Shown: positions 9,761 through 38,836, numbered from the stretch's first letter. The stretch is DNA of 64,000 bases from a virus (IMGVR_UViG_3300047469_000094), one strand, 5' to 3'. Notes: a model not told the origin generated them from the letters alone. Translations and numbers: made by a program.

Positions 9761-11560
9761 TTACGCTGCTTTCGGCAGACTTTCAGTCAGATTCGTACGA
9801 ACCGACACCAACGTTGCTTTGGATAGAACTTGGCTGTTCCGGTACGCACAGTTGAGAACACCGTAATAACCAACGGGTTTCCCTTCGACAGGGATGTACT
9901 CACCAGCCTCATCAAACTCTACGGCCAGCCAGCCTTTGGCAGAGTGCTTACCGGTGTCTGTTTTCGGTGCCTTGTAGACATCGATTTTCAGACCGTTGAC
10001 TTCCCCGTAAGTCAGCTTCATAGCAAAGCCCAGAGAGTCACGGGTGATGTGCTGGATGCTGTAGCTACCGACACCGACCACGATATTCTCTGCGGAGAAG
10101 CCCATTTCCATCAGACGCTGCAAGATAGCTTCGAAGCGTTGGATAGTAATGGAGTCACCGTAGATCAGGCGGATCTTCGGATTCAGCACTTTGTAGCCTT
10201 TGCTGTTCACGGTGCCGCCGAACAGTTCCCACAGCCACTGGATGCTGCCTTTCTCTTCCACGGTCAGGGTAGTAGGTTCGAACTTCGAAACCTTCTTGCC
10301 GTCCATGTAGTAGAACTGCTTGTCACGACGGTTCCACTCGATGTCCACGGTGTAGCGGTACAACTCACCGTTCCAGCGGGCAACGCCAGAAACTTCGGAA
10401 CGGCCAGGTTCGCCGTGTGCGGTTTCATCGTAGACCATCTCGGTTACATAGTCCTTGATCCAGCCTTTGGCATGGTCTTCGGTTTCAGCTTCGGAGCCGA
10501 TTTCGAAGACTTCAACCGTGCCGCAGATGATGTCCTTAGGGACGCCGCTGTCAGGCCGAACTACGAACGGACCCCCTTCACGAGCCAGGATCTTGTCTTT
10601 GAGCAGTGGCAGGCCGTGCTCCAACATACCGAAGTAGTCATAGCTGTCCATCACATAGCTGATAGGACCGACGTTGTCCAAGTAGTCAGAGAGGAAGCTT
10701 ACCTCTGCTTCGAACAAGGAGCAGCCACGCATCACAGCACGCATCTGAATGTTCAGAGTTGTCAGACTGTGTTCGGTAGCCATGATGGAACCGAAGTCAG
10801 CCTTGGTTGCGCCGTATTCGTGCATCGCAGCCAAGCAACCCGGGATGTTATCGGTGCCGGTAAACGCAGACAGCATCGAAGGACCAGTTTTGTAGCCCGC
10901 CCACATGCCAAACAGACCGCGAAGACTGAAGTCGTGGCACTGATACGTTACGTAGCCGTTATCGTCAGCCGTCAGTGCTGCGTACTTCTCTGCAACAATT
11001 CGGTACTCACGAGCAATAGTTGCTACGGTGCAGGCAGGCCACAGTTCGTTACTGAAGTGGTCTTCGGTGTAGCTTGCCAGCCATGCGAAGTCCTCATGGG
11101 TGTTGTCCACCAAGATGATCGGAGTACCCGCCCGTACTACGCGGCCTTCTTCGACTGCGTGAACCTGGATAGGCAGATAACCCAGTTTGTGCAGATCGGA
11201 GTAGATGGTGAGATCTGCGTTCGGAGTAGTTGCTTCTATCAGAGGGCGGATCACGCTCTCAACTTCTTCCCACGAAGCTTCAAAGAATTGGTTCCAGGCA
11301 TGGTTGATGGCATTCAGACCTTGGAGAACCCCCGCGACAACGATCTTACCGTCGTACTTAGAACTGCCTTGGAAGTGCTTGGTGCTACGTGGGGTGAAGT
11401 TACCCTGACCCTTCGTATAGCCTTTCGGGAACAGACCTGGGTGACAAAACTTGTACGCGTCACAGAGGATGGCTGCGTACATCGGAGCCGGAGGGGTTTG
11501 CATACGGGTGATTGCAGGGTATGCGGTGGAGCTTACTGGCGTAGGGATCTGCACTTGCAT
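9761..11560 (-). CDS. nadV: nicotinamide phosphoribosyltransferase (NAMPT/NadV family; could alternatively be a Namat-type enzyme of an NAD reconstitution pathway)
   Basis: 599-aa ORF with NAPRTase-family architecture (AILCDAYKF..., central catalytic region); AAGGAAG RBS. Confidence 0.88.
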   Translation of the reverse strand: MQVQIPTPVSSTAYPAITRMQTPPAPMYAAILCDAYKFCHPGLFPKGYTKGQGNFTPRSTKHFQGSSKYDGKIVVAGVLQGLNAINHAWNQFFEASWEEVESVIRPLIEATTPNADLTIYSDLHKLGYLPIQVHAVEEGRVVRAGTPIILVDNTHEDFAWLASYTEDHFSNELWPACTVATIAREYRIVAEKYAALTADDNGYVTYQCHDFSLRGLFGMWAGYKTGPSMLSAFTGTDNIPGCLAAMHEYGATKADFGSIMATEHSLTTLNIQMRAVMRGCSLFEAEVSFLSDYLDNVGPISYVMDSYDYFGMLEHGLPLLKDKILAREGGPFVVRPDSGVPKDIICGTVEVFEIGSEAETEDHAKGWIKDYVTEMVYDETAHGEPGRSEVSGVARWNGELYRYTVDIEWNRRDKQFYYMDGKKVSKFEPTTLTVEEKGSIQWLWELFGGTVNSKGYKVLNPKIRLIYGDSITIQRFEAILQRLMEMGFSAENIVVGVGSYSIQHITRDSLGFAMKLTYGEVNGLKIDVYKAPKTDTGKHSAKGWLAVEFDEAGEYIPVEGKPVGYYGVLNCAYRNSQVLSKATLVSVRTNLTESLPKAA

Positions 11561-11570
11561 GGATACTTCC

Positions 11571-12410
11571 TTAGTTGGTTTCGCGGGTTACGTTGAGTAC
11601 TTCCAGATTACCTGTGCCCTTGAGATGGCGAATGTAACTGTTAGTGGTGAAAACTTGGTCGTAGATATCGGAAACCACCGGAATCCCCTTTGAGAAAAGA
11701 CCGTGGGTCACTGCAAGGCTTACCGACGTTGCACCTTGGCTTTTCAGGGAGTGAAGCAATGGAACGAAAGTCCCGCAACCATCACCGATATCATCCAGAA
11801 CCAGAAGGGTACGACCTTCGACAGTATCGTTTACACGAGTACCCGAGATAATACCCGTTTCGAGGTCCCGTACTTTGGTGCAGTGAATTACCCCAGCCGC
11901 ACCTACACGTTTAGCGAACATTTCCGCCTTCTTCGCAGCACCGCCATCCGGGGCCGCAATGTAGACTTCTCGCCACGACGAATAGATGTCTTTGAAGATG
12001 TCGTACTGGTTGACAACTTCGAGGCGGTTGAACAGGGCCGGGGTCACTTCACTGTGAGGATCGAGGATCTTCACGTTGACGAAGTTGCAGGCGTTGATCA
12101 GTCGTGCAACGACGGCAATACTCAGAGGCTCACCTGGATTGCATACCCGATCCTGCCGAGCGTACGGCATGTACGGGATAAACGCGGAGATCGCTGCTCG
12201 GGGATACACACGACTAACAGCATCGTGGATCATGATCAGGTTCAGCAGATCACCCTGCGTTGTCAGCCTGGCCACGATCTCTACTTCCATCACTTTTTCA
12301 GGGTAGAGGTTGCCTGTCTGAATCTGTGGCACCACTTCCCCGCCTGGGAAATTGATGTAGCTGACTTCTTCAGTTACGTTGCCGAAACGCAGGTAGATAT
12401 TCTCTTTCAT
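11571..12410 (-). CDS. prs: ribose-phosphate pyrophosphokinase (PRPP synthetase, Prs) or Prs-like ADP-ribose pyrophosphokinase
   Basis: 279-aa ORF; PRPP-binding PRTase motif LLVLDDIGDGCGT and Prs N-terminal fold. Confidence 0.88.
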   Translation of the reverse strand: MKENIYLRFGNVTEEVSYINFPGGEVVPQIQTGNLYPEKVMEVEIVARLTTQGDLLNLIMIHDAVSRVYPRAAISAFIPYMPYARQDRVCNPGEPLSIAVVARLINACNFVNVKILDPHSEVTPALFNRLEVVNQYDIFKDIYSSWREVYIAAPDGGAAKKAEMFAKRVGAAGVIHCTKVRDLETGIISGTRVNDTVEGRTLLVLDDIGDGCGTFVPLLHSLKSQGATSVSLAVTHGLFSKGIPVVSDIYDQVFTTNSYIRHLKGTGNLEVLNVTRETN

Positions 12411-20151: not shown

Positions 20152-20248
20152 GTGAGTACCTTGATTGGTGGGCCGTAGGTGAATTGAACACCTATCCGAG
20201 ACTTATGAGGTCCACGCATTGAACCACTATGCTAACGGCCCGTAAAGC

Positions 20249-20985: not shown

Positions 20986-21190
20986 AACTACGATGACGAC
21001 TACGTCCTTTAGCCACGCTGGCTTGTTTGCGTTCCCGTTTACAGCTCTTTGGTGGAACTACGTGTACCCATTCCTTAGGAATCTCCACAATCTTTCCACG
21101 GCGCTTACGGTACGTCTTTCCCTCCACTTTTAGAAACATAGACAAGTCCTTGTTTTGATAGGCAAATAGAAAGGGCCCCGAAGGGCCCAA
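20939..21190 (-). CDS. hypothetical basic protein
   Basis: 83-aa ORF; 5' end overlaps terminator hairpin, true start may be internal. Confidence 0.35.
   Translation of the reverse strand: MGPSGPFLFAYQNKDLSMFLKVEGKTYRKRRGKIVEIPKEWVHVVPPKSCKRERKQASVAKGRSRHRSYVWRKDADSSDSRID
21173..21188 (-). terminator. rho-independent terminator (GGGCCC-UUCG-GGGCCC then UUUCUAUUU on minus strand)
   Basis: Perfect 6-7-bp GC hairpin with UUCG-type loop immediately 3' of tRNA-like element. Confidence 0.5.
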
Positions 21191-21253
21191 TGGCAGGATT
21201 CGAACCTGCGACTCACCAAAGTTGGTGTGCTCTACCAGTTGAGCTACATTCCT
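21186..21253 (-). tRNA. tRNA-like element, non-canonical (clear D-arm and T-arm; aberrant acceptor pairing and 6-bp/short-loop anticodon-like hairpin with TTT); possible pseudo-tRNA
   Basis: Minus strand AGGAATG-TA-GCTCAACTGGTAGAGC-A-CACCAACTTTGGTG..-GCAGGTTCGAATCCTGC-CATTGGG; own promoter (21265) and terminator (21173). Confidence 0.4.
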
Positions 21254-22249: not shown

Positions 22250-22335
22250 TGGCTCCGGGAGCTGGGGTCGAACCAGCAGTGTAATTAAACGCTTGGTTAA
22301 CAGCCAAGTGGGGTTGCCAATTTGCCTATCCCGGA
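22250..22335 (-). tRNA. tRNA-Asn (anticodon GTT)-like, CCA encoded, unusually long (14-nt) variable region and weak D-stem
   Basis: Acceptor TCCGGGA/TCCCGGA, anticodon stem CTTGG/CCAAG loop CTGTTAA, T-arm GCTGG-TTCGACC-CCAGC, G+CCA. Confidence 0.6.
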
Positions 22336-22340
22336 ATATA

Positions 22341-22422
22341 TGGTGGAGAGTAATGGAATCGAACCACTTCTACTTTCGAACAGCGTTTACAGCGCCGCGC
22401 ATTCCCAATCTGCCAACTCTCC
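22341..22422 (-). tRNA. tRNA-Tyr (anticodon GTA), class II, CCA encoded
   Basis: Acceptor GGAGAGT/ACTCTCC, anticodon stem CGGCG/CGCTG loop CTGTAAA, 12-nt variable arm, T-arm AGTGG-TTCGATT-CCATT, A+CCA. Confidence 0.8.
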
Positions 22423-27360: not shown

Positions 27361-27777
27361 CTATTGCGTTGATACCACCCCGGACGGGACGGAAACGTAA
27401 GCACCTTCGGTAAGAATCTCAGAGATCATCTCTGGGATCAACTCCTTCAAGTTCTTGTCCATGCCGTACCAATGAGTGCAGTGAAGCAGTCGAAGACGGT
27501 TCAGAGTGTGCTTAGTGTCAACTGTGGATAACTTGAGGAAATCAACCGCCTCCGTTACCTCGCAAATACTGAAGAATGAACTGCGGAACATCTTGTCCAG
27601 CTTCATCTTCACTAGCGCAACGTCAAACGGGTCATGATCGTCGAGAAAAACTAAGCGGTCCACCGTGCTCTGCTTACGAGCAATAACTCGCGTACCGTAG
27701 GTAGAAACCTCTGTCTTAGGCTGTACAAACTTAGACAGAAAAGTCATCAAAGCACCCTTCTCTTGTAGCTCACTCAT
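27361..27777 (-). CDS. hypothetical protein (N-terminal MTFLSKF motif, family-like)
   Basis: 138-aa ORF. Confidence 0.5.
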   Translation of the reverse strand: MSELQEKGALMTFLSKFVQPKTEVSTYGTRVIARKQSTVDRLVFLDDHDPFDVALVKMKLDKMFRSSFFSICEVTEAVDFLKLSTVDTKHTLNRLRLLHCTHWYGMDKNLKELIPEMISEILTEGAYVSVPSGVVSTQ

Positions 27778-28304
27778 CTCATATTCCTCTTGTAATCACC
27801 ACGAACAGCGTCAACACCGTTGTACTCAACGAAGATCACTTCCTCGCCTTCCAGCTCTTCGTCGATGATTGCAGAAATGATCCGCCAGTCACCGCCAGCA
27901 CGAGCAGCTCCAATCGCAGGCACACCGAAGGACTTGCCTTGATTACCGTAGTCCGGCTTCAACTGCCTGAACACAGATCGCAACGCATCGTAGTCACAGA
28001 GAACACCCTTGCCGTACCAGTGGAACTGGGTATAGGCATTGATGATCGTACCTAAAAAGACTCCACGACGAACACCGTCTGAGTTTCGGAGATCCCGGTA
28101 GATATCTGCGTGGGTGTACGTCCCCAACTTCGTTTTGTCGAAACGAACCGTACGGCAATCCGCCTCGTAAGCTTCCGGGTATTTCTCCTTGATAGTCCTA
28201 GCAATGCCATCGCCCATGTTATTACCACAGTTACAACCGTGGACGATTACGTCGAAGTCACCTTCGCTGAAGCCTAGGATCAAATCGCCTTTAACGTGTT
28301 TCAT
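27774..28304 (-). CDS. macro-domain (ADP-ribose-binding/processing) protein
   Basis: IVHGCNCGNNMGDGIARTI and GVPAIGAARAGGDW blocks typical of MacroD/YmdB-type macro domains. Confidence 0.75.
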   Translation of the reverse strand: MKHVKGDLILGFSEGDFDVIVHGCNCGNNMGDGIARTIKEKYPEAYEADCRTVRFDKTKLGTYTHADIYRDLRNSDGVRRGVFLGTIINAYTQFHWYGKGVLCDYDALRSVFRQLKPDYGNQGKSFGVPAIGAARAGGDWRIISAIIDEELEGEEVIFVEYNGVDAVRGDYKRNMR

Positions 28305-29035: not shown

Positions 29036-29290
29036 TCAGGCCTTTATTTGGAATAGTACTGTTCTACCAACCAAATGGCTACCATTCAGAAGGATACCTG
29101 TTATCTCGAAGATCCCTTTGTGGGCACGTATAGACAAATAGTCATCAGTCCTATCTGATAAACGATACGTCAATCGCTCTTCAGTTATTGAAGTGATTGG
29201 ATAATTTACGCTCATGTACCTGAAACTTATAGGAACGTCTAACGCCCTACCACCAAACCTATCCACCATCGTTGTTACGAAGTCCATCAA
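29036..29290 (-). CDS. small protein, paralog array 2 (7 tandem ~86-aa copies)
   Basis: MMDFVTTMVDRFGG...; paralogous to neighbours. Confidence 0.55.
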   Translation of the reverse strand: MMDFVTTMVDRFGGRALDVPISFRYMSVNYPITSITEERLTYRLSDRTDDYLSIRAHKGIFEITGILLNGSHLVGRTVLFQIKA

Positions 29291-29544
29291 CTGTTACCTC
29301 CGATATCAATCACGACACGTCGCTTAGATGGGAGGAAACGGCTACCCTCGGTGGTCACTGATCGAACTACGTAGTCAAATGTGCCAGAGGTTAACGACCC
29401 GGAGTCCCCATCGTCAGCCCTGTACTTAACCCGATCATCTTCAATTCCTATTACCCGATAGTACTTACGAGCATACTTGAAGTAAACACCACGAGGCATA
29501 CTCTGGTTCGAGAACAGTTTCACCATCATCGTTGCAAAGTACAT
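29287..29544 (-). CDS. small protein, paralog array 2
   Basis: C-terminal RRVVIDIGGNS shared with next copy. Confidence 0.55.
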   Translation of the reverse strand: MYFATMMVKLFSNQSMPRGVYFKYARKYYRVIGIEDDRVKYRADDGDSGSLTSGTFDYVVRSVTTEGSRFLPSKRRVVIDIGGNS

Positions 29545-29808
29545 TCATCCACTCCCTATATCTATAACGATTCTTCTTTTTCCATGGATCAAGCTGCTTC
29601 CACGGATGCGGACACCACGTATGTAGTACCTGTAGCTTGTCGCTTTTGCATACAACACTTCTACGTTGTAATCAGTCCGATACTTTATAAAGTCAGCACC
29701 TACTTCCTCTATGGGGTAACTCCTATCTCCATACTTGAAAGATAGCCCCTCAGGACTACCAAGGCCATCGAAAAGACGCACCAACGTGCTAACGAAGTCC
29801 ATACTCAT
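29545..29808 (-). CDS. small protein, paralog array 2
   Basis: MSMDFVSTLVRLFDGLG...RRIVIDIGSG. Confidence 0.55.
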   Translation of the reverse strand: MSMDFVSTLVRLFDGLGSPEGLSFKYGDRSYPIEEVGADFIKYRTDYNVEVLYAKATSYRYYIRGVRIRGSSLIHGKRRIVIDIGSG

Positions 29809-30065
29809 TTATACCTACAGTAGAGGTGGATGCGTCCACGTTCGAGAACTTTGTTAGAATTCTCTATCTTCACAGTTTGGATGTGCAGGTTCTTATAGGT
29901 GCCTTCATCCAAGACTCCTGTGCTGGAAGACCCAAGATGCCGGTACCGAATACCACCTGGAATTACCTCCGTGATTTGATAACTTACTCCGGCGAGGGAA
30001 AGCCAAAGATCGTTACCTACCGCCTTGCCAAGTAGGTGGCGCTTCAACGTTTCTATTAATCGCAT
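29805..30065 (-). CDS. small protein, paralog array 2
   Basis: ...RIHLYCRYK C-terminus. Confidence 0.55.
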   Translation of the reverse strand: MRLIETLKRHLLGKAVGNDLWLSLAGVSYQITEVIPGGIRYRHLGSSSTGVLDEGTYKNLHIQTVKIENSNKVLERGRIHLYCRYK

Positions 30066-30073
30066 AACACCTC

Positions 30074-30334
30074 CTAGCTATAGCGGCACTCAAAGTATAT
30101 ACGCGGTTTCTTTACTAACTTTTTAGCGGAAGAAATTTTGACCACCATAAGCCGCATGGAGGGGTTGCTCTCTACCGTTATGCACTCTTCCTGCATTCGT
30201 CCCCCTATCCGTAGATAGATCCCTTTGTCAGTAACCTTTGCTATTCGGTGGGTGCTACTACCCAGTGTCAGGAACGTATCTCGGGGAAGTACACGTCCAG
30301 AGAAACGCCGGATCATTTCACTTACAAACTGCAT
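30074..30334 (-). CDS. small protein, paralog array 2
   Basis: MQFVSEMIRRFSGR...RIYFECRYS. Confidence 0.55.
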   Translation of the reverse strand: MQFVSEMIRRFSGRVLPRDTFLTLGSSTHRIAKVTDKGIYLRIGGRMQEECITVESNPSMRLMVVKISSAKKLVKKPRIYFECRYS

Positions 30335-30346
30335 AACTCCCCCTAC

Positions 30347-30625
30347 TCAGTAATCAAACTGACAGTCGATGAAGTACTTAGGTGTGTTTACCAGCTTCCT
30401 CTCGGTCTCTACTGAGAAACCTTTAATATTCAGGTCGCTGTAGACATGAGGAGCCAGAAGGCTTCGACCTGTCTCATTAATATGCGTGTAATACACACCC
30501 TTGCTGTCTACGCCGACTATACGGTACGGCGTCTCTTTTATCCGGAGGTACAACTCCTTGGGAAGAGGTACACCTATTAGACGGTCAATCATTGTTTGAA
30601 CAAAGTTCATAACCCCTCCGCTCAT
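30347..30625 (-). CDS. small protein, paralog array 2
   Basis: ...NFVQTMIDRLIG...KYFIDCQFDY. Confidence 0.55.
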   Translation of the reverse strand: MSGGVMNFVQTMIDRLIGVPLPKELYLRIKETPYRIVGVDSKGVYYTHINETGRSLLAPHVYSDLNIKGFSVETERKLVNTPKYFIDCQFDY

Positions 30626-30891
30626 TCACTAGTAAACCGACAGTCAAAGACATATCGTTGTTTCTGGGTGACTTTCTTAGGCGGAGAGATGGTTACTCTC
30701 ACTATCGTTAGACTCCTTTCTTGACCCACCGTAAGGACGTTTACCGGAGACCCTTCTCGTTCCAAGGCATACCAGATACGATCCTTGCCTACTTGGAAAA
30801 TCCGATACGAGTTCTCATGAACCTTCATATAGGTTTCTTTGGGTAGCGGTACTAAATAGAAACGATCTACCAATGCCTGTACAAGTTGCAT
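30622..30891 (-). CDS. small protein, paralog array 2
   Basis: MQLVQALVDRFY...RYVFDCRFTSE. Confidence 0.55.
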   Translation of the reverse strand: MQLVQALVDRFYLVPLPKETYMKVHENSYRIFQVGKDRIWYALEREGSPVNVLTVGQERSLTIVRVTISPPKKVTQKQRYVFDCRFTSE

Positions 30892-30910
30892 CGTTCAATC
30901 CTCTTAAAAG

Positions 30911-30935
30911 AAAAAGGAGGCCTAAGCCTCCTCTT
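30911..30935 (-). terminator. rho-independent terminator
   Basis: GGAGGC-TTAG-GCCTCC hairpin + TTTTTC on minus strand right after DNA polymerase stop. Confidence 0.5.
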
Positions 30936-30937
30936 TG

Positions 30938-32602
30938 TTATGCAGCCATTGGGGCCCGTCCAAATTTGTCAACCATAAGTATTTCTACTTCTGGCTGAGT
31001 TATTCCTCGGTGGACGGTCGCCACTTGCTTCCAGTTGATACCAGCTTCAACGTCGATGCGGATAGGGAAATCCATCCACTCAAACGTTTCCACCAGCAAA
31101 TCCTCCATCACATAGAAAGCAGTGTTTATCGCCTCTGCCATCCGGTGATACGGGACCTCAATAGCCAGCGAGTCATACACCGTGGTAAGGACCTTTGCAC
31201 CCATTGGTTTAACGGCTTCGTTGAGCTTGGAGAAACCGTAAAGACCTGTAACGGCAGAGCTGCTCTGACAACGAACGTTCTGTGAGTTACGTAGGGCCGC
31301 GTTGTATACCGCAGTCTTGCGAAAGATATTCATTGCTCCGAATTCTTTCTTAGACTGACCGTACATATTCATGACGTAGTTATTAGCCTTCGCCATTGCG
31401 TGTGAATCGTTTACGTACACTTCGATCAACGGGAACTCTTTGAAGTACATCGCAATAAGGCGGGTAGCCTCTTGCTCAGTAATGTTCAGGGTATGAGCAA
31501 TGCCTCTGACGCTAGATCCGTAGAGGATTCCAAAAGTTAGAGATTTTGCCCCTTGACGCAGGGCTTTAAATCGTTTTTTAAGAGCCAGGATAGCGGGATC
31601 ACTACCCTCGTAGTTGACGTGGAAAACCATCTCATCGTAGTCCACCCCATGCATCTGAGATGCGGAGTACGAATGGAAATCCTTGCCTTCCGCAACCGCC
31701 CTTAACAATTTTGGATCTCGGCATAGGAATGCCAGCATAACTACTTCTGCACCTGACTGATCCAGGCACAGGAATAGATTCCCAGGATCTACGGTGTAGC
31801 ACTGCTTGATACTGTACCCTAACTTGTTTTCAGTCTGGGTGTTAGGAATCTGAGTCATATTCGGGAACTGACCAGACGGCCTGAACGACGAAGTACCAAA
31901 CAACGAATAGCTACTGTGAACCCTACCATCACTCTTGACGAAATCAGGGATATACGTCTTGAAAAAAGTATTGTACACAGAATTAACGTTGTTCCGTCGG
32001 GCTAAGACCTTCAACCAATCCAGGTTATGAGTCTCAGCTAAAGCACTTAACGCATCACCATCAACGCTCGGCTCGTTCTTCTTGGTGTAGCTAGGAGGCT
32101 CAAAACCAAGATCCCCATAGAGAATCTTTACCAGTTCTTTGCCACTATCCGGATTGAACTTCGACCCAAACAAGGTGAAGATCTCATCTTCAAGTCGTGG
32201 CAACTCCTCCTCAATCTGAGCACACTGCTTCCTATTAAGGTCGCAATCGTACTTAATCCCATTGATCTCCATGTCGATTAAGAACTCGTGAGCAGGCATT
32301 TCTACCTGCTCCATGAAGTCTAGGATGGCTGGGGCTGACCGAACTTCCTGAACCCCCTGCGTGTAGTACATATACGGTTTCCGCTCAACCACCTTGGGGA
32401 ATACTGCGTTCAGTACCCCCGTTGTCGCCAAGCAGTCAACACCAGCATACTGGTAGAGATCCTCCGGAGGGAAGTCCTCATACGTGTTGTATACCGGTGC
32501 TTCTTCTTTTACTGCGACAGACTTTCCCATCCGTTTGTCCTCGATGGCTCCCCTGAGGAGAACCCTATTTCTGTAAACTCTGCGTCGGGCGTAGTTATCC
32601 AC
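30938..32602 (-). CDS. family A DNA polymerase, polymerase-domain subunit (carries Exo III-like motif and pol motifs A, B, C)
   Basis: YAGVDCLAT (Exo III-like Yx3D), motif A DQSGAEVVMLAF, motif B RQGAKSLTFGILYGSS, motif C VYDSLAIEV. Confidence 0.88.
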   Translation of the reverse strand: MDNYARRRVYRNRVLLRGAIEDKRMGKSVAVKEEAPVYNTYEDFPPEDLYQYAGVDCLATTGVLNAVFPKVVERKPYMYYTQGVQEVRSAPAILDFMEQVEMPAHEFLIDMEINGIKYDCDLNRKQCAQIEEELPRLEDEIFTLFGSKFNPDSGKELVKILYGDLGFEPPSYTKKNEPSVDGDALSALAETHNLDWLKVLARRNNVNSVYNTFFKTYIPDFVKSDGRVHSSYSLFGTSSFRPSGQFPNMTQIPNTQTENKLGYSIKQCYTVDPGNLFLCLDQSGAEVVMLAFLCRDPKLLRAVAEGKDFHSYSASQMHGVDYDEMVFHVNYEGSDPAILALKKRFKALRQGAKSLTFGILYGSSVRGIAHTLNITEQEATRLIAMYFKEFPLIEVYVNDSHAMAKANNYVMNMYGQSKKEFGAMNIFRKTAVYNAALRNSQNVRCQSSSAVTGLYGFSKLNEAVKPMGAKVLTTVYDSLAIEVPYHRMAEAINTAFYVMEDLLVETFEWMDFPIRIDVEAGINWKQVATVHRGITQPEVEILMVDKFGRAPMAA

Positions 32603-32973
32603 CCACCGGAAGCGCTAGAGAATTCGACGTCTGCATCTACGTCCATGAACCGCAATTCGTCTGCAAGATCATGTTCAGAATCGACGGTTTTATAGTAGCA
32701 CGTCTTATTACGACGGATCAGAATTTCGAAACGGCCTGGTTGTGTTTTGTGTTTACGAATACGACCAAGAAACCAACGACCATCGTAGCCGGAGGTGTTA
32801 CCCATGACAAACGAACCCAACGTCTGTTCGGTGTTCAAGTTACGAACCATGAACATACCGTGGATAGGCTTGGCCATAGTCCGTACTGCCTTTAGGACAC
32901 CTGGATCACCTTTGACGCCTGAGAAGCAGTACTGAGGCATCGCGTGCAGCGGTTTGATATTTCCACCACTCAT
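32509..32973 (-). CDS. hypothetical protein
   Basis: 154-aa ORF between the two polymerase parts. Confidence 0.45.
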   Translation of the reverse strand: MSGGNIKPLHAMPQYCFSGVKGDPGVLKAVRTMAKPIHGMFMVRNLNTEQTLGSFVMGNTSGYDGRWFLGRIRKHKTQPGRFEILIRRNKTCYYKTVDSEHDLADELRFMDVDADVEFSSASGGWITTPDAEFTEIGFSSGEPSRTNGWESLSQ

Positions 32974-33533
32974 TCGTAGATACCTCCCGAGCCCATGCCA
33001 CCCATACCAAAGTAATCGTCCATGTCACCATCATCCATCTGAGAGTTGCCACCGAACAAAGAGTTATCCCCGAACAGCATCTCGAAACGAAGATCCTGAG
33101 GATGCTCTACAAACTTCTCCTGGAAAGGATGATCCAAGGATGCCTCCCAGTACTCGGAGAGACCGAACAGACTATCCGTCCCGTTTAGCTCCAAGCCCTT
33201 GAGGAGATTCATAATCTCGCTTGGGTGCTTGCAGAACGCAGTTGCGTCTCGGCTACCACCGTGGATGAACAGTTCGTGATACACACGGTTAGGATCTACT
33301 GCCGAAGGGCTTGGCTGAATCTGACCGATAAAGTACGAACCGGCGTGGTCACCTTCAAGGGTGAACGCAGATACGCTGCTCTCATCTTCACGCAGCTTCA
33401 CCAGGAAGTAACCATCATTGCGTACAGCACCAAGACGAAGTTCGTACAGATCCCGATCTCGGCTAAGACCCATAGCTTTGAAACAAGCGAGTGGAACATT
33501 GGTCAGCGGCTTTACATTCTTGTATTCGAACAT
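32970..33533 (-). CDS. hypothetical protein with Gly/Met-rich C-terminus
   Basis: Start placed at internal ATG (M46 of ORF 32970..33668) with GAGGAAG RBS; upstream gene 33544..33978 ends just before. Confidence 0.5.
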   Translation of the reverse strand: MFEYKNVKPLTNVPLACFKAMGLSRDRDLYELRLGAVRNDGYFLVKLREDESSVSAFTLEGDHAGSYFIGQIQPSPSAVDPNRVYHELFIHGGSRDATAFCKHPSEIMNLLKGLELNGTDSLFGLSEYWEASLDHPFQEKFVEHPQDLRFEMLFGDNSLFGGNSQMDDGDMDDYFGMGGMGSGGIYE

Positions 33534-33543
33534 GGTTACTTCC

Positions 33544-33978
33544 TCAGACAATATCAAAGCCGGTTTCGGCGAAAGTTTTGGATTCAGATACGTTCCACTT
33601 GGAAGGGTAGCGACTAATGTCTTCCCCTTTCTCCAAGGAGCGCAATGCCTCCGCAAGAGCATGGTCATCCATCGCTTCTACTTCGTAGACCGTACCCAAG
33701 GTTCCGGTCAGATAAAGAGAACGACGATAGACTTCAAGTTTGTAGTCCGTGTCCTTACTCGGAGTAAGACTGATCTTCCCCAACCGCCAAGACCCGGTAA
33801 ACCGAAGACCTGTAAGGGGGAAAGTGTCATTGATCATTATCTCCGACATGAACATGAAGAAACCATCTGCACGTCTCGTCTTCTTGCGCAAGGCGTGGAG
33901 CATCGAACTGTTATGGTCGTGCCCCGTCTTAAAAAACGCATTCATCGGGATGTCCACCAACGGTACTATCTTGGGCAT
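33544..33978 (-). CDS. hypothetical protein
   Basis: 144-aa ORF. Confidence 0.5.
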   Translation of the reverse strand: MPKIVPLVDIPMNAFFKTGHDHNSSMLHALRKKTRRADGFFMFMSEIMINDTFPLTGLRFTGSWRLGKISLTPSKDTDYKLEVYRRSLYLTGTLGTVYEVEAMDDHALAEALRSLEKGEDISRYPSKWNVSESKTFAETGFDIV

Positions 33979-34047
33979 CAGAGCCTCCTAAGCTATGGAT
34001 TGCACTTTGTTTATACCAAAGAAAAGGCCCCTTAATGGGGCCCTTGT

Positions 34048-35052
34048 TTACCAGCGTTGGTTACGAGGAACGGGTCCTCGGTTACGTTGGTTCTGTGGTA
34101 GGTGAGGCCGAATGTCGTCCGTACGGTAAGTCACAGTACTCGCAGATCGAGCAATCTCATCGTAGAACTGGGTATGAAGTTCTTCCCCAAACCGATTAAT
34201 ACGACGAGAGGCTTCGTTACGAGAATTCTGCCTTCCCAAAGTCAACTCTCTAACAATCTCTCGATCTATTTCATCGACAATAGTCAGTTCTTGTGCCCTC
34301 GTCATCTGACGAAGAAACCCATTACGACCCATGTTGTCATTAATTTGACGTGCGGCCATATCGGCTAATTCCGCCATGGCACCCTGCCGAACATTACGCC
34401 ATTCCGCAGTAACGTCACCATCAAAATCCGCAGCTCGGAAGGTATCGTGGGGCCCACCAATAGTTGTGGTCATAGCTCCTATCGGTCTTTCGTTAGCCCA
34501 TCTATCAAATGCGTGGACTCCATATACCCCACCTACACGATCTGTCATCCGCGACAAACGAGCCAGGTGAATATCACGGATAGTCTGGCTTTCGACTAGA
34601 GTACTATCGTCGGTAACATCTGGGAAAGACGAGGGGTATGACGGTCCCAGGTAAACCTCTTGACAGAGATTTGATTGGTATCTCCCTACCCCCAAAGGCT
34701 TCTCCGCCATAGACTTGAATCGACCCATAGCCTCAAGGTTTGCCTCGTAGACGTTAGAAGACTTCTTTACCGCCTCCTCCCCGTCAACGTAAAAACTACA
34801 CACCGACAATCGATCCGGATCATTGACTGAACCTTGAACGAACCGGGCCCCTTTGATTGCACGCAGTAGTTTCACCGGAGAGCCTAGAAGCAGGCTCACT
34901 ACGTTGGTTGCCAACTTCTCTGTACCAGGTCCACCCGGGTCATGCATGATCGATACTACCCTTTTTACAGGGTCGTTCGAAAAGAAGTCCTTGGGAGTCC
35001 TAAGAGAGAGCCTCGCTTCCGGAGGCAAACTAAACAAGACGTTTGAATACAT
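34048..35052 (-). CDS. hypothetical protein
   Basis: 334-aa ORF inside the split-polymerase interval; no endonuclease or intein motifs seen. Confidence 0.55.
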   Translation of the reverse strand: MYSNVLFSLPPEARLSLRTPKDFFSNDPVKRVVSIMHDPGGPGTEKLATNVVSLLLGSPVKLLRAIKGARFVQGSVNDPDRLSVCSFYVDGEEAVKKSSNVYEANLEAMGRFKSMAEKPLGVGRYQSNLCQEVYLGPSYPSSFPDVTDDSTLVESQTIRDIHLARLSRMTDRVGGVYGVHAFDRWANERPIGAMTTTIGGPHDTFRAADFDGDVTAEWRNVRQGAMAELADMAARQINDNMGRNGFLRQMTRAQELTIVDEIDREIVRELTLGRQNSRNEASRRINRFGEELHTQFYDEIARSASTVTYRTDDIRPHLPQNQRNRGPVPRNQRW

Positions 35053-35058
35053 CTCAGA

Positions 35059-35358
35059 TCACTCTGTGGTTAGTGGGAAGGGTTTGACCATTTCTCGGTA
35101 GTCGCTAAGAACTTGGGTACCGAACTTAATGCTGGCGGTGATGTCAACGTGGACTACTTCTCCCGGACACCTCTCAGGCTGAAAGAAGTGAACACCAAGG
35201 ACAGACCTACGAAGATCCATAGGACTGCCCATGACATACGAGAAGGCCGGTGCCAAGAACCCGCCATCAGCAGAGTAGACACTGGCCTCGATAATCGCAT
35301 CTTCTACATGTAGCCTTAACTCAAGAGGCTTACTCAGCCTCATCGTAGATATCATCAT
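35059..35358 (-). CDS. hypothetical protein
   Basis: 99-aa ORF. Confidence 0.4.
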   Translation of the reverse strand: MMISTMRLSKPLELRLHVEDAIIEASVYSADGGFLAPAFSYVMGSPMDLRRSVLGVHFFQPERCPGEVVHVDITASIKFGTQVLSDYREMVKPFPLTTE

Positions 35359-35990
35359 CGAAAGTTGGCCCGTTGGAGTATTTCACTAGGCCTAGACGAT
35401 ATCACAGCTAAGTAAAGTTCGGAAGAGGTTACTGAGCAACGGACGTGTTCAGGGTCATCTGGAACTGGCTGCATGTCGAATCTGATCCGAAGATCTGCCC
35501 CAGAAATCTCATGGGTAACCCCAAGCCCTTTCGCCTTTAAGTTAATAAAACGGACAAGCCTATTACGCAGCTCCCGTTCAAACGCAGCCGCATACTGAGT
35601 ATCACTCATCATCTCTGCGCTAACGATAGTGCTTATCCATTCCGCTTTGAGGTGGACAGGGCTAGGGGCACGGGGGAACCCCTTCGTAACCGTGGTTTCG
35701 AGGGTGTAATCAAAGCCATTCCCCGGGTCTTCAAAAAGAAGGTAGGGACCAAGAACACCCCTTAGCGCACGAGGATTGACGACAGTGTTAATCCGTACGA
35801 GCTGAACGTTGAAACCATCCACAGGCGTAACACTTATCGCACGTCGGTAGTAGTCTCCTCGGAAACTACCCAACCCCAGATACTTGATCGTCTCTCCAGG
35901 CTTTGGTTTTAGGAAGAGTTTCATCCCCGGTAGTTCTCCCGCGTGTAAGCGTTCTGTTCGAAGCCCCGGGAATTGGTGTCCTGAAGCCAA
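35355..35990 (-). CDS. hypothetical protein
   Basis: 211-aa ORF. Confidence 0.5.
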   Translation of the reverse strand: MASGHQFPGLRTERLHAGELPGMKLFLKPKPGETIKYLGLGSFRGDYYRRAISVTPVDGFNVQLVRINTVVNPRALRGVLGPYLLFEDPGNGFDYTLETTVTKGFPRAPSPVHLKAEWISTIVSAEMMSDTQYAAAFERELRNRLVRFINLKAKGLGVTHEISGADLRIRFDMQPVPDDPEHVRCSVTSSELYLAVISSRPSEILQRANFR

Positions 35991-36171
35991 CCGTCGTTAA
36001 AGAAATTGCCCTCGTAGCTGTTATCCACTAAGTGAACCCCGTGGACCAGAGAAAATCTGATCCTTGGATTCTTAACAATGATTCCTGAGTACTGATTCTG
36101 AATCTCTACCAGAGAGCCGTCGGCACTCGCCTTACGGATGTAGAAGTTACTCCTCTCGTATATCCTCAGCT

Positions 36172-37530
36172 TTATTCGTCGCATTCCCCCACCTCCTCTT
36201 CCTCGGACTCTTCTTCGCCTTCAACCACCTTCTTCCTCTTGGTCAGGGCAGGGAGCTTGTCTTCGTACCCGCCAAGACCACTCTCAGGTAAGAAGTCCCA
36301 GACAGCCTTCTTCAGACTGTAGTTGTTCTTCAACCCAGAGTTGATCGCGTGCAGTAACAGCAACGTATCGAACGCAGCGTTAACCACACGGACACCGGTA
36401 GTAACGAAGGTGTAAATGATATCGAACTTGATGTTGTGACCAACCTTAGGTCGTTGAGACAGAAGCAATTCTGCAATCAACGGCCAAGCTTCGTTTGAAT
36501 CGTAGAAGTTGTTGGCCCTGTGCCACAGAGGGAATACCAATGCCTTAATCACGCCATCCGCAGGGTCCGTGTATCCGAACTGAGCAGTGATGATCTTTGC
36601 GTTAGCCGCCCAGGCATCAAGGCTCGTCGTCTCCAAGTCGAAGCTGATGATCTTGTTCGCCGGAAGGTCGTTAAGGATCTTGATCATGGCTCTGACGTCA
36701 GTCATAGATCGAGCAATGGTGATCCGAGTTGAAGCTTCGGCCAGAGCATCGTCAAGACTTACTACCTTCAGGTCGCCACGAGCAATCCGTGCAGCCTTAG
36801 CGAAGTCACGATCAAGGACTTCGAAGTAGTCCGGACCCCATTCTTTACCTGAGGCATTCTGACGGATCATCGTCAAGGACTTAGGGTGGAGAGTGATCAC
36901 CGCAGTACCGTAGTCAGTCGTGTGGAATTCACCACGGTTAGACGAACAGGTGGCCTTGATACCCAGAGCACTGATCGAGTTCGTAGACATCACGATGATC
37001 GCCTTAGGCTTGATCCTGCGAAGTTCCTCGTGAAGGTAGGGAGTACATGGTTTGATCTTGGTGGTTGTCACGGTTTGACCCCGAAGGTCAGACGCTTGCG
37101 GCAAGCACTTAAGAGTACTGACTACGGCGTAGCTCAACCGTTGAAAATATTTCTGAGCCAGGAAGCCAATGATGTCCCGGTAGATACGCTCCATTTCATC
37201 AGAGGATTTGTACATCTGGGCTAAAGCGTTGTGGTCCTGAACTATGACGATATCGACCTGTTGAGTGGTCAAAGTCACTTGTTTAGGACGACGACTGGAT
37301 GGGCACAGACCACAGGCCGAGTTGCAGTACCGATCCTGGATCTTGGAGAAGTCTTCCTTCTCGATGATCTGCTTCCGGATCGAAGGCATCATCTTCCCGA
37401 TCTCGGCTGCCTTGGCGTACAGCTCGTCCAAGCTCAGCTCGTTCGTCTTCTTGGCTCTTGGTTTCTTAACTTTTCCGGATGGGGTGGCCGTATCTCCCAG
37501 GCCCCCGATCGGTTTGAAGTTAGTAGACAT
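36172..37530 (-). CDS. DNA polymerase N-terminal subunit: UDG-superfamily-like domain fused to 3'-5' exonuclease (Exo I and Exo II motifs)
   Basis: Exo I ISFDLETTSLD, Exo II HNIKFDIIY; upstream half has family-4-UDG-like blocks (KCLP, TLHPKS); acidic C-terminal tail; no Exo III in this ORF. Confidence 0.8.
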   Translation of the reverse strand: MSTNFKPIGGLGDTATPSGKVKKPRAKKTNELSLDELYAKAAEIGKMMPSIRKQIIEKEDFSKIQDRYCNSACGLCPSSRRPKQVTLTTQQVDIVIVQDHNALAQMYKSSDEMERIYRDIIGFLAQKYFQRLSYAVVSTLKCLPQASDLRGQTVTTTKIKPCTPYLHEELRRIKPKAIIVMSTNSISALGIKATCSSNRGEFHTTDYGTAVITLHPKSLTMIRQNASGKEWGPDYFEVLDRDFAKAARIARGDLKVVSLDDALAEASTRITIARSMTDVRAMIKILNDLPANKIISFDLETTSLDAWAANAKIITAQFGYTDPADGVIKALVFPLWHRANNFYDSNEAWPLIAELLLSQRPKVGHNIKFDIIYTFVTTGVRVVNAAFDTLLLLHAINSGLKNNYSLKKAVWDFLPESGLGGYEDKLPALTKRKKVVEGEEESEEEEVGECDE

Positions 37531-37578
37531 GGTGAAAACCTCTAAGTGTTATGGGGTGTTACATCATTGTTATACCAC

Positions 37579-37587
37579 ACATAGGTC
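37579..37587 (-). promoter_or_regulatory. extended -10-like promoter element (minus strand TGGTATAAC + AATGATG)
   Basis: ~45 nt upstream of start codon of 36172..37530. Confidence 0.4.
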
Positions 37588-37860
37588 GATGTGGGGAAGT
37601 CTGTTTTTTAGGAAACGATCTGTAAGGTCTCTTAGAGCCACGACTGGATCTAGGAGCTACCCTTGCCAGGGGTGAAGTTAGATCGTTGCTCAGATCGCAT
37701 CTCAGGAGCTCACAGTGCGTAGGAAGGGGTCTCAGGGTGATCGTAGGTATGGTCGTAGTAGAATACTGCGGCGAGGCCCTTCAAAGCACCTCTGAAACCA
37801 TTGATCTAGAGCCTGCGCGGAAAGAGGCCTTGATCTACGTGGCCTCCAGAGGCATGTCTA

Positions 37861-38520
37861 AGCCGTAGACAAACCATGTCTACGCTAAGAGGCCCGTGCT
37901 AGAGCCTTTAGACAAAATATTAGACATCTAGACAAAGTTTTGTCTAAGTCATGTCTACGGCTGCAGGCCGCGGCCCGTATGGCTTTGAGGGGTGCGCTAG
38001 ACATTTAGACATGAATTTTCTCCGCACAAGCACTAGGGCTCAGAAACCAGGAAATAAAAAACAAGAAATGGAGACAGTCATATACATACTATATATATTT
38101 ATATATTTATAACTATATATATGTACCCATGACATGGCTATGGCTGTTGTGTAAAGAATGTTGAACACGAGGTTGTAGAGTTGTTTTTTTATTTGTGTGT
38201 TTCCAAGCTCTGGGTGCTCGTGCGGAGAAAATTCATGTCTTTTTGTCTAAAAGAGGCTGAAAGCCACGGCCCGCCTGGGCTGCAGCCGTAGACATGACTT
38301 AGACATGAACTTTTGGAAATGTCTAAAACTTTGTCTAATCGCTCTAGGACGGGCCTCTCAGCGTAGACATGACTTTGTCTAGTTTTGTCTAAAAATGTCT
38401 AAAAGTAGAAAAGTCATGTCTTGATGTCTTAGATAATGAGAACGAATATCAACAAGTAGTCGTAACCCTGTTCGACATCTGACTCAGGGTGTTGAGAATA
38501 CTTTACACATTTAGACATGG
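37861..38520. repeat. iteron array (about 20 copies of TAGACAT / ATGTCTA-type 7-8-mers in both orientations) flanking an AT-rich core and a large imperfect palindrome; candidate origin of replication or centromere-like site
   Basis: ORF-poor 1.1-kb region; repeats gtagacaaaccatgtctac, tagacatctagacaaagttttgtctaagtcatgtctac and others; AT core atatacatactatatatatttatatatttataactatatatat; GC-rich inverted repeats at 37961-37983 and 38267-38291. Confidence 0.6.
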
Positions 38521-38638
38521 GCGGAGGGGATTGGATAGGATTGGACTATGACTGATCGTTGATCAATAGAAGATTGCTATTCTACTAGCTAAAAGAAAAG
38601 AGGACCGAAGTCCTCTCTCTTGACCCTGAGGTCAGTTC

Positions 38639-38836
38639 TTAACGAACGAATTCGCAGAACGAAGATTTTGCAATCTGAAGCATGTCGTTGTCAGAGTAGG
38701 AACGCTTGACTTGGCGAGCTTCCTCTCGGGTCAACATTGGGCCGAGGCGCACACGGAGTGTACCACGTTCAACCAGGAAGTACGAATTAACTCGTGGAGC
38801 AGGGGTAGTAACGGCGTTGGTACGAGGAGTAGTCAT
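38639..38836 (-). CDS. hypothetical small protein
   Basis: 65-aa ORF. Confidence 0.4.
   Translation of the reverse strand: MTTPRTNAVTTPAPRVNSYFLVERGTLRVRLGPMLTREEARQVKRSYSDNDMLQIAKSSFCEFVR

What the first reader, a model, noticed from the sequence alone, without database searches (positions are those of the whole stretch)
30938..37530. Family A DNA polymerase split into two genes 3.4 kb apart with the exonuclease motifs divided between them
Exo I (FDLETTSLD) and Exo II (HNIKFDIIY) lie in ORF 36172..37530, which also begins with a UDG-superfamily-like domain. Exo III (YAGVDCLAT) and polymerase motifs A, B and C lie in ORF 30938..32602. Five to six unrelated ORFs sit between them (34048..35052, 35355..35990, 33544..33978, 32970..33533, 32509..32973). 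None shows intein or homing-endonuclease motifs. Either the polymerase works as two polypeptides that reassemble one exonuclease active site, or an ancestral gene was split by a multigene insertion.
Basis: partly seen in the sequence, partly recalled or inferred. Interest (0 to 1): 0.6.

Follow-up and report, generated by a model that had tools for sequence, protein, structure and literature searches.

The report
Phage DNA polymerase split through its proofreading site
This phage encodes its replicative family A DNA polymerase as two separate genes 3.6 kb apart, with the cut running through the proofreading exonuclease so that its catalytic residues sit on two proteins; this layout is conserved across a large group of uncultured phages and differs from the one published polymerase split of this family.

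Summary
ORF 36172..37530(-) encodes a family-4 UDG-like domain plus the Exo I and Exo II part of a DEDDy 3'-5' exonuclease. ORF 30938..32530(-) encodes the Exo III helix plus a complete PolA polymerase domain; its true start is ATG 32530, not GTG 32602. The two proteins tile a single-chain relative (P0261, 858 aa) end to end.

The break falls in a surface loop between Exo II and Exo III. It is at the same position in Salmonella phage Arash, Vibrio phages D69/D148/D181 and over 100 metagenomic lineages. All exonuclease and polymerase catalytic residues are invariant across the clade.

The distance between the halves ranges from overlapping genes (TAATG) to 13 genes (7.8 kb, Arash), and the inserted genes are lineage-specific. 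So the gene fission came first and the junction later collected insertions. I found no intron, intein or homing endonuclease, and a terminator-like hairpin lies inside the gap.

The best reading is a two-subunit UDG-PolA whose proofreading site is assembled from both subunits. Assembly itself is inferred, not shown. Splits between exo and pol are published for T7-like cyanophages, but there Exo III stays with the exonuclease gene. This is a new variant of a known kind.

The parts
36172..37530 (-). N-fragment gene (452 aa): UDG-like domain plus the Exo I/Exo II part of the 3'-5' exonuclease plus an acidic tail
   Evidence: Pfam UDG and DNA_pol_A_exo1. AF2 model pLDDT 86.5, pTM 0.81. Foldseek hits phiLo UDG-PolA 9qhs, family-4 UDG/UdgX and the Klenow exo domain.
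36856..37353 (-). Family-4 UDG-like domain (about aa 60-225). It has four conserved Cys (C69, C73, C142, C162), an 'IQD[HY]xA' motif in place of GEAPG, and 'TLHP[KR]'.
   Evidence: Glycosylase activity not tested.
36256..36723 (-). N-terminal two thirds of the DEDDy exonuclease fold (about aa 270-425), carrying Exo I D298/E300 and Exo II N366/D370
   Evidence: These residues are invariant in 120/120 homologues. The family profile aligns to E. coli Pol I residues 337-451.
36175..36234 (-). Disordered acidic C-terminal tail of the N fragment (aa 433-452, EGEEESEEEEVGECDE)
   Evidence: pLDDT below 50. Tails are net negative in 113/115 homologues. The tail is absent from the fused relative P0261.
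35921..36184 (-). Gap ORF 1 (87 aa), overlaps the N-fragment stop; no known family
   Evidence: No homologue in L001-L005.
35355..35924 (-). Gap ORF 2 (189 aa counted from ATG 35924); no known family
35059..35358 (-). Gap ORF 3 (99 aa); no known family
34048..35052 (-). Gap ORF 4 (334 aa); no known family
34023..34045 (-). Terminator-like hairpin inside the gap (AAGGGCCCC-ATTAA-GGGGCCTT followed by TTCTTT)
   Evidence: Consensus match only; function not shown.
32509..33978 (-). Three tandem paralogous ORFs (144, 187, 154 aa; 33544..33978, 32970..33533, 32509..32973) immediately upstream of the C fragment
   Evidence: They are paralogous to each other and syntenic with three ORFs in relative L003. 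No Pfam or PHROG hit.
30938..32530 (-). C-fragment gene (530 aa): Exo III helix plus the complete PolA polymerase domain
   Evidence: PF00476 E=8.8e-57. phmmer to Taq and Klenow. AF2 pLDDT 89.7. Foldseek to Taq/Bst large fragments, about 440-455 aligned columns. Start chosen and P0121.
32387..32467 (-). Exo III helix (aa 22-48) with Y28 and D32
   Evidence: Y28 and D32 are invariant in 110/110 homologues. Helix 22-48 appears in the AF2 model. It aligns with the Exo III region of CP-51, PMBT14 and ctfzr933.
30906..30932 (-). Terminator-like hairpin directly after the polymerase stop codon (AGGAGGC-TTAG-GCCTCCT followed by TTTTCTTTT)
   Evidence: Read directly from the sequence. The palindrome is also listed.

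Best explanation
The phage's replicative family A polymerase is a two-subunit enzyme produced by an old gene fission. Subunit 1 (452 aa) carries a family-4 UDG-like domain and the part of the DEDDy proofreading fold that bears Exo I and Exo II. Subunit 2 (530 aa) starts with the Exo III helix and continues into thumb, palm and fingers.

The two polypeptides are translated separately and probably from separate terminator-bounded units. They then associate non-covalently. The Exo III helix of subunit 2 docks into the incomplete exonuclease fold of subunit 1, and this restores one active site: D298, E300 and D370 from subunit 1, and Y28 and D32 from subunit 2.

The cut lies in a solvent-exposed loop that is short in single-chain relatives. 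After fission the new C-terminus became a disordered acidic tail. The intergenic junction no longer needed to stay contiguous and accumulated lineage-specific accessory genes, seven of them here.

Shown: domain content, break position, conservation, variable gap, absence of detectable splicing elements.
Inferred: physical assembly, exonuclease activity, separate transcription.
For: 1. The two window proteins tile the single-chain relative P0261 without gap or overlap. N fragment aa 28-428 matches P0261 3-380, and C fragment aa 12-503 matches P0261 379-855.
2. The break column is the same in the window, Arash, L003, L004 and L005. It sits in the loop 'LPKGDD|EGNYD' of intact CP-51 PolA.
3. Catalytic residues are invariant: Exo I D/E and Exo II N/D in 120/120, Exo III Y/D in 110/110, motif A D/E, motif B R/K/F and motif C D in 110/110, and motif B Y in 107/110 (F in the other 3).
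4. In the 120 best hits listed for each search, N-type proteins are 260-491 aa without PF00476 (119 of them are 390-500 aa). C-type proteins are about 330-600 aa without PF01612; the shorter ones are further-split pieces. The exhaustive search shows a score cliff between this clade and the ordinary intact UDG-PolAs (at least 225 bits versus at most 79 bits), apart from a handful of short partial sequences in between.
5. Gap states are 0 genes (L014 ATGACTAG, L016 TAATG), 1 (D69), 2 (L004, L005, L015), 7 (window), 10 (L003) and 13 (Arash). Gap genes are not shared between lineages.
6. No Rfam family reaches E<=1 in 30800-37700. The same tool does find a group I intron at the second, motif-B break in Arash.
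7. The tail after the last aligned residue is about 25 aa and the leader about 11 aa, which is too short for split-intein halves. There is no Hint or intein Pfam hit.
8. Both genes have their own Shine-Dalgarno sequence and ATG. Terminator-like hairpins follow gap ORF 4 and the polymerase gene.
9. AF2 gives confident folds for both halves, with the acidic tail disordered.
Against: - There is no direct evidence of a complex.
- No transcript or protein data exist for this phage. The Arash virion proteome lists Gp168, the N fragment, but says nothing about association.
- Motif C reads YDS instead of the canonical HDE across the clade, so polymerase chemistry may be atypical.
- Fused forms (P0261, P0263) nest inside the split clade in a neighbour-joining tree. 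The history therefore includes either re-fusion or several fissions, and the tree root is uncertain.
- The terminators are consensus matches only.
Confidence: 0.8

Rival explanations
1. Protein trans-splicing: the halves carry split-intein pieces and are ligated into one chain. This would be a 'fractured gene' in the sense of Dassa et al. 2009 (PMC2677866).
For: Fractured polymerase genes with intervening ORFs are known from metagenomes (title and abstract seen). The two halves here are separated by unrelated ORFs.
Against: No intein or Hint family hits either half or the concatenate. Only about 25 acidic residues follow the last residue that aligns to intact PolAs, and only about 11 precede the first aligned residue of the C fragment. 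A split intein needs roughly 100 plus 35 residues and a Cys/Ser/Thr at the +1 position, as established for split inteins. None of the gap ORFs scanned against Pfam, here or in relatives, is a homing endonuclease; the Arash and L003 gaps were only partly scanned.
Confidence: 0.02
2. RNA splicing: the 3.6-kb interval is a very large group I or group II intron, or a twintron, carrying ORFs, and the mRNA is spliced.
For: Phage polA genes often carry group I introns. Relatives of this phage have one at motif B (Arash, L001 2757-3028). L003 has an HNH_3 ORF at that same site.
Against: No Rfam match at E<=1 in 30800-37700 on either strand or at gathering threshold. The N fragment ends in a conserved, translated acidic tail and a stop codon. 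The C fragment has its own ribosome-binding site and ATG. Relatives with the same break have overlapping genes and no room for an intron. A terminator-like hairpin lies inside the gap. Seven tightly packed same-strand ORFs fill the gap.
Confidence: 0.03
3. The two genes have separate functions. The N fragment is a free-standing UDG or accessory protein with a vestigial exonuclease half. The C fragment is an exonuclease-deficient polymerase that keeps a structural Exo III helix, as CCPol keeps three exo helices (PMC10201439).
For: Genes 3.6-7.8 kb apart and separated by a terminator could be regulated independently. PolAs with truncated exo domains exist.
Against: Every DEDDy catalytic residue is invariant on both proteins over a range of 40-100% identity. 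Inactive PolA exonuclease domains such as Taq and Bst have lost these carboxylates, which is established knowledge. Neither half holds a complete DEDDy set. Fused relatives show the two parts make one enzyme.
Confidence: 0.1
4. Decay or artefact: the polymerase gene is a pseudogene broken by insertions, or the split is an assembly or frameshift error.
For: In one subclade the split and fused states differ by a frame change next to a G6 run (L023). In a metagenome that could be a sequencing error.
Against: The same 6.6-kb arrangement recurs at about 100% identity in independent assemblies L011 and L013, and in L012 at 100% except for a mosaic tract of 73-96% identity. It also recurs in isolate genomes: Arash and three Vibrio phages. 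Both ORFs are full length with invariant active sites.
Confidence: 0.02

Closest known systems
S-SBP1-like split T7-like PolA of marine cyanopodoviruses (Czernecki et al. 2023, NAR, PMC10201439)
   Same: A family A replicative polymerase encoded as two genes after a gene fission. The termini are predicted to be solvent-exposed and the complex is presumed to be preserved. The basal arrangement is two overlapping adjacent genes.
   Different: In S-SBP1 the 171-aa exo gene holds Exo I, II and III (YCIQDV), and the cut is at the exo/pol boundary. Here the cut is between Exo II and Exo III, so the active site is shared. The PolA subfamily is different: UDG-fused, not T7-like. The halves can be up to 7.8 kb apart rather than overlapping. 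The clade is old (down to about 40% identity) rather than recent.
Single-chain UDG-PolAs: SPO1-like, N4-like and SP15-like (phiLo, YerA41; Missoury et al. 2025 bioRxiv 10.1101/2025.03.26.645540; PDB 9qhs)
   Same: An N-terminal family-4 UDG fold followed by a DEDDy exonuclease and a PolA polymerase domain. The N-fragment model's best PDB match is the phiLo polymerase. Sequence homology to CP-51, PMBT14 and SPO1-type enzymes.
   Different: Those enzymes are single chains. UDG motif A is IQD[HY]xA here rather than GEAPG or LVGEAP. Polymerase motif C is YDS rather than HDE.
Intron-interrupted phage polA genes (SPO1/SP82 type; the motif-B intron of Arash)
   Same: The polymerase coding sequence is discontinuous in the genome. 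Relatives of this phage do carry such an intron at motif B.
   Different: The break studied here has no detectable ribozyme, ends in a stop codon, and restarts with its own translation signals.
Split family B polymerases (gp43A/gp43B of some T4-like phages; PolB1/PolB2 of Methanothermobacter) - recalled from my own knowledge, not checked here
   Same: A replicative polymerase reconstituted from two separately encoded polypeptides, sometimes with inserted genes between them.
   Different: A different polymerase family. As I recall, those breaks lie in the polymerase domain, not through the exonuclease active site.

Membership tests
Family A DNA polymerase (PolA) | Polymerase domain with motifs A (D..E), B (R..K..F..YG) and C (.D.) | tested here: met
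   PF00476 E=8.8e-57. Motifs CLDQSGAEV, RQGAKSLTFGILYG and VYDS; the catalytic residues D, E, R, K, F and D are invariant in 110 homologues and motif B Y is in 107/110. Foldseek to Taq/Bst. Motif C is YDS, not HDE.
DEDDy 3'-5' proofreading exonuclease (DNA_pol_A_exo1) | Exo I (DxE), Exo II (Nx2-3[FY]D) and Exo III (Yx3D) on one domain | tested here: met
   All three motifs are present and invariant, but they are distributed over two polypeptides. PF01612 matches only profile positions 9-112 of 173 on the N fragment.
UDG-PolA (SPO1-like, N4-like, SP15-like) | Family-4 UDG fold N-terminal to the exonuclease domain | tested here: met
   PF03167 E=1.7e-7. The family profile hits family-4 UDG and UdgX chains. 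Foldseek TM about 0.6 to 4zbx and UdgX, and top hit phiLo 9qhs.
UDG-PolA (SPO1-like, N4-like, SP15-like) | UDG, exonuclease and polymerase in a single polypeptide | tested here: not met
   Separate genes here and in all of the 120 best N-type and 120 best C-type relatives listed. In the exhaustive search only two clade representatives, P0261 and P0263, are fused.
UDG-PolA with active glycosylase | Catalytic motif A (GE[AQ]PG) and motif B His | tested here: inconclusive
   Motif B His is conserved in 119/120. Motif A reads IQD[HY]xA, with Asp where Glu is expected, and the Pro is not conserved. No activity data.
S-SBP1-like exo/pol split PolA | Break at the exo/pol domain boundary, with a complete exonuclease on one gene product, in a T7-like subfamily | tested here: not met
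   The S-SBP1 exo protein contains Exo III. Here Exo III is on the polymerase protein. The nearest intact relatives are UDG-PolAs, not T7-like enzymes.
Split-intein 'fractured gene' | Intein N and C halves flanking the break, and a nucleophile at +1 | tested here: not met
   No intein or Hint Pfam hit. The extra residues at the termini are too few and are acidic or basic low-complexity sequence.
Group I / group II intron-interrupted gene | Ribozyme core detectable between the exons | tested here: not met
   No Rfam hit at E<=1. Positive control: the Arash motif-B intron scores 58.9 bits.

The most novel reading that the evidence does not exclude
This may be a natural DEDDy proofreading site assembled from two different polypeptides. 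If so, proofreading, and the attached UDG-like module, would be a detachable subunit that is separately transcribed. Its stoichiometry relative to the catalytic subunit could set replication fidelity or uracil handling during infection. The conserved acidic tail of the N fragment and the often Lys-rich leader of the C fragment could act as a tether or regulator. I know of no described PolA, or other DnaQ-fold exonuclease, with its active site split in this way.
Probability: 0.35. Interest if true: 0.7.

Novelty: new variant of a known kind. Interest (0 to 1): 0.55.

Why it matters
Gene fission in PolA was reported only in 2023 and only at the exo/pol domain boundary. A second, independent and much older fission cuts through the exonuclease active site. 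It shows that the DEDDy fold tolerates being assembled from two chains.

It also gives a natural system for studying how proofreading is coupled to polymerisation, and a ready-made design for split-polymerase engineering.

There is a practical consequence for annotation. The halves are currently mislabelled in GenBank: Arash carries 'uracil DNA glycosylase', 'DNA polymerase nu' and 'DNA polymerase theta'. Phylogenies or marker-gene surveys based on polA will mis-handle this clade of phages (assembled contigs up to about 200 kb).

Finally, the junction is a clear example of a fission site turning into a hotspot for accessory-gene insertion.

Tried and rejected
- A megablast of 30000-38000 against phage genomes found nothing. 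Relatives are visible only at protein level.
The assembled active-site geometry therefore could not be modelled, and only the separate halves were folded.
- Pfam and PHROG scans of all seven gap ORFs, and a Pfam scan of ten gap ORFs from relatives, gave no significant family and no HNH, GIY-YIG or LAGLIDADG domain.
- I tested whether the two small gap ORFs of L004/L005 are conserved partners. They have no homologue in L015, D69, Arash, L003 or the window. I rejected the idea that they are conserved subunits.
- I tested whether N-tail negative charge co-varies with C-leader positive charge in 26 pairs. Spearman rho is -0.26, p=0.21, so there is no support. Pairs were matched by equal contig length, which is only a heuristic.
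- A first phylogeny script timed out. The neighbour-joining tree with 100 bootstraps puts the fused forms inside the split clade (split-only monophyly 0/100). With a very distant outgroup I do not regard the polarity, re-fusion versus repeated fission, as settled.
- The apparent length differences of the 334-aa ORF among near-identical contigs (141, 299, 334 aa) are gene-calling differences for L011, whose DNA is about 100% identical. They are not hypervariability.


Full report
**1. What is in the sequence**

The interval 28-40 kb is transcribed almost entirely on the minus strand.

ORF 36172..37530(-) (452 aa) matches Pfam UDG (PF03167, aa 125-225). It also matches DNA_pol_A_exo1 (PF01612), but only over profile positions 9-112 of 173 (aa 278-397).

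ORF 30938..32602(-) matches DNA_pol_A (PF00476, E=8.8e-57) and aligns to Taq and Klenow polymerase domains. Scanning the concatenated protein does not extend the exonuclease match, because the Exo III part is too divergent for that profile.

The likely start of the second gene is ATG 32530. It is preceded by GAGGACAAACGG, and the identical database protein P0121 is 530 aa. The distance from the stop of gene 1 to the start of gene 2 is therefore 3,641 nt.

**2. Where the break lies**

I aligned the concatenated halves with three intact UDG-PolAs: Bacillus phage CP-51 gp104, Pseudomonas phage PMBT14 gp45 and the metagenomic myovirus ctfzr933. The end of the N fragment and the start of the C fragment fall in one loop, CP-51 '...GGYDDELDPYLPKGDD|EGNYDMIPWDTLKVYLAADVD...'. 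This loop is after Exo II and before the Exo III helix.

Profiles built from the two families align to E. coli Pol I residues 337-451 (Exo I D355/E357, Exo II D424) and from residue 523 onward. The envelope of the second profile begins at 477, which covers Exo III Y497/D501.

A single-chain relative found by the exhaustive search settles the point. P0261 is 858 aa. The window N fragment aa 28-428 aligns to P0261 3-380, and the C fragment aa 12-503 aligns to P0261 379-855. The junction in the fused protein reads GGYEDELGKLPAGKTYEDF. Neither the acidic tail nor the leader is present there.

**3. Structure**

AF2 models built with family alignments are confident. The N fragment has pLDDT 86.5 and pTM 0.81, with residues 433-452 disordered. 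The C fragment has pLDDT 89.7 and pTM 0.84, with a long helix at 22-48 that carries Y28 and D32.

Foldseek links the N fragment to three things: the cryo-EM structure of the phiLo UDG-PolA (9qhs), family-4 UDG/UdgX, and about 150 residues of the Klenow exonuclease domain at rmsd about 3 Å. The C fragment matches Taq/Bst large fragments over about 440-455 columns.

A model of the two halves together could not be made.

**4. This is not peculiar to this genome**

The nearest cultured relatives are Salmonella phage Arash and Vibrio phages D69, D148 and D181, at about 40% identity.
- In Arash the N fragment is annotated 'uracil DNA glycosylase' (gp168). It lies 7.8 kb and 13 genes upstream of the polymerase. 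Those genes include nicotinamide phosphoribosyltransferase and NMN adenylyltransferase.
- In D69 one 181-aa ORF intervenes.

In the metagenomic protein collection, 119 of the 120 best N-fragment hits are 390-500 aa (the other is a 260-aa partial), and none carries PF00476. The 120 best C-fragment hits carry no PF01612. About 110 of them are roughly 500-600 aa and the rest are shorter, further-split pieces.

The exhaustive search of 1.84 billion representatives shows a cliff. Clade members score at least 225 bits and are nearly all 390-500 aa. The ordinary intact UDG-PolAs (700-1300 aa) score at most 79 bits. Only a handful of short partial sequences fall in between.

**5. Selection**

Across these homologues the following are invariant: Exo I D298/E300 and Exo II N366/D370 (120/120), Exo III Y28/D32 (110/110), motif A D257/E262, motif B R325/K329/F333, and motif C D453. 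Motif B Y337 is present in 107/110, with F in the other three.

Exonuclease-dead PolAs such as Taq and Bst lack these carboxylates, which is established knowledge. Their strict retention on two different proteins is therefore the main argument that the two products rebuild one active site.

Two clade-wide oddities stand out. Motif C reads YDS rather than HDE. UDG motif A reads IQD[HY]xA, with four conserved cysteines and the motif-B histidine retained.

**6. History of the gap**

Contexts of nine further relatives give a series:
- Overlapping genes: L014 ...AAATGACTAG, L016 ...GACTAATGG. Both have a Shine-Dalgarno sequence inside the acidic-tail codons.
- Two small ORFs: L004, L005, L015.
- Seven ORFs: the window.
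- Ten ORFs: L003.

Gap genes are not shared between lineages. The exception is the three paralogous 144/187/154-aa ORFs shared by the window and its 71%-identical relative L003. None of the gap ORFs scanned against Pfam is a recognisable homing endonuclease. The break therefore predates the insertions.

Two representatives, P0261 and P0263, are fused. In a neighbour-joining tree they sit inside the split clade, next to split members whose halves overlap out of frame. One of these, L023, has the overlap beside a G6 run. Where the genes are adjacent, the state can evidently toggle by small indels. The polarity is unresolved.

**7. Splicing is unlikely**

Rfam finds nothing in 30800-37700 even at E<=1. 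It readily finds a group I intron at the second interruption in Arash, in motif B. That intron explains why GenBank lists two polymerase CDS there.

The residues beyond the alignable core are about 25 (acidic) and about 11, which is too few for split-intein halves. No intein domain is detected.

A terminator-like hairpin lies inside the gap, after gap ORF 4, at 34023-34045. Another follows the polymerase stop at 30906-30932.

**8. Comparison with the literature**

Czernecki et al. 2023 (PMC10201439) reported exo/pol fission in T7-like cyanophages as the first in PolAs. I retrieved S-SBP1 and found that its 171-aa exonuclease protein contains Exo III (YCIQDV). That cut is therefore at the domain boundary, and the exonuclease site stays intact on one chain.

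Split polymerases are also mentioned for another cyanophage lineage and for OM43 phages, without mechanistic detail.

The UDG-PolA papers (PMC10201439; bioRxiv 10.1101/2025.03.26.645540) describe only single-chain enzymes. The Arash paper does not mention the split.

**9. Verdict**

The object is an ancient, clade-wide two-gene UDG-PolA whose proofreading site is divided between the subunits. The interval between the genes is a secondary insertion hotspot.

It is a new variant of a recently recognised phenomenon. It is of moderate to good interest to polymerase and phage specialists. Biochemical confirmation is feasible in phage Arash.

Noticed in passing
window 37560-38640: A 1.1-kb non-coding region lies directly upstream of the N-fragment gene. 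It holds 20 of the window's 43 TAGACAW heptamers, against about 17 expected in the whole 64 kb. They occur in both orientations in two clusters (37854-38012 and 38243-38518) that flank an AT-rich stretch at about 38090-38135. GC skew turns positive at 36-40 kb. It looks like an iteron-type replication origin or a dense operator array.
   Followed up: partly
window 29036-30891 (-): Seven tandem paralogous ORFs of 84-92 aa lie immediately downstream of the polymerase gene. They have no Pfam or PHROG family. Weakly related small ORFs occur in relative L003.
   Followed up: partly
window 32509-33978 (-): Three tandem paralogues (144, 187, 154 aa) of unknown function lie directly upstream of the C fragment. 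They are conserved in order in L003 (14184-15558) but absent from more distant relatives.
   Followed up: partly
L001 (Salmonella phage Arash) 2757-3028 (-); also L003 16633-17389, L015 and L021: In several relatives the polymerase domain is interrupted a second time, inside motif B (RQGAKSVTF|G.LYG). In Arash this is a group I intron (Rfam 58.9 bits), and GenBank annotates the exons as 'DNA polymerase nu' and 'DNA polymerase theta'. In L003 an HNH_3 ORF sits in the interruption. The window's gene is uninterrupted there.
   Followed up: partly
L005 20101-20473 and L004 19872-20123: Two metagenomic relatives (contigs of 88 and 200 kb) carry tmRNA genes about 7 kb downstream of the polymerase, one standard and one permuted.
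   Followed up: no
window 35136-36330 versus L012: One otherwise identical strain (L012) diverges to 73-96% identity only across the N-fragment tail and the first gap ORFs. It has a 6-nt indel in the acidic tail. This suggests recombinational mosaicism at the start of the gap.
   Followed up: partly
window 9761-12410 and 27774-28304: NAD-related genes lie elsewhere in this window: a NAPRTase-family protein (599 aa), a PRPP synthetase-like protein and a weak, sub-threshold Macro-domain match (176 aa; 22.1 bits against a gathering score of 22, no stretch passing on its own). In Arash the NAD-salvage genes lie inside the polymerase gap.
   Followed up: no
window 6002-6072, 20169-20241, 21189-21250, 22253-22335, 22344-22422: Five tRNA genes on the minus strand.
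   Followed up: no
L023 2055-2074: In a split relative that is close to a fused one, the two halves overlap out of frame next to an A4G6 run. This could be a real recent fission, a programmed frameshift site or a homopolymer sequencing error.
   Followed up: no
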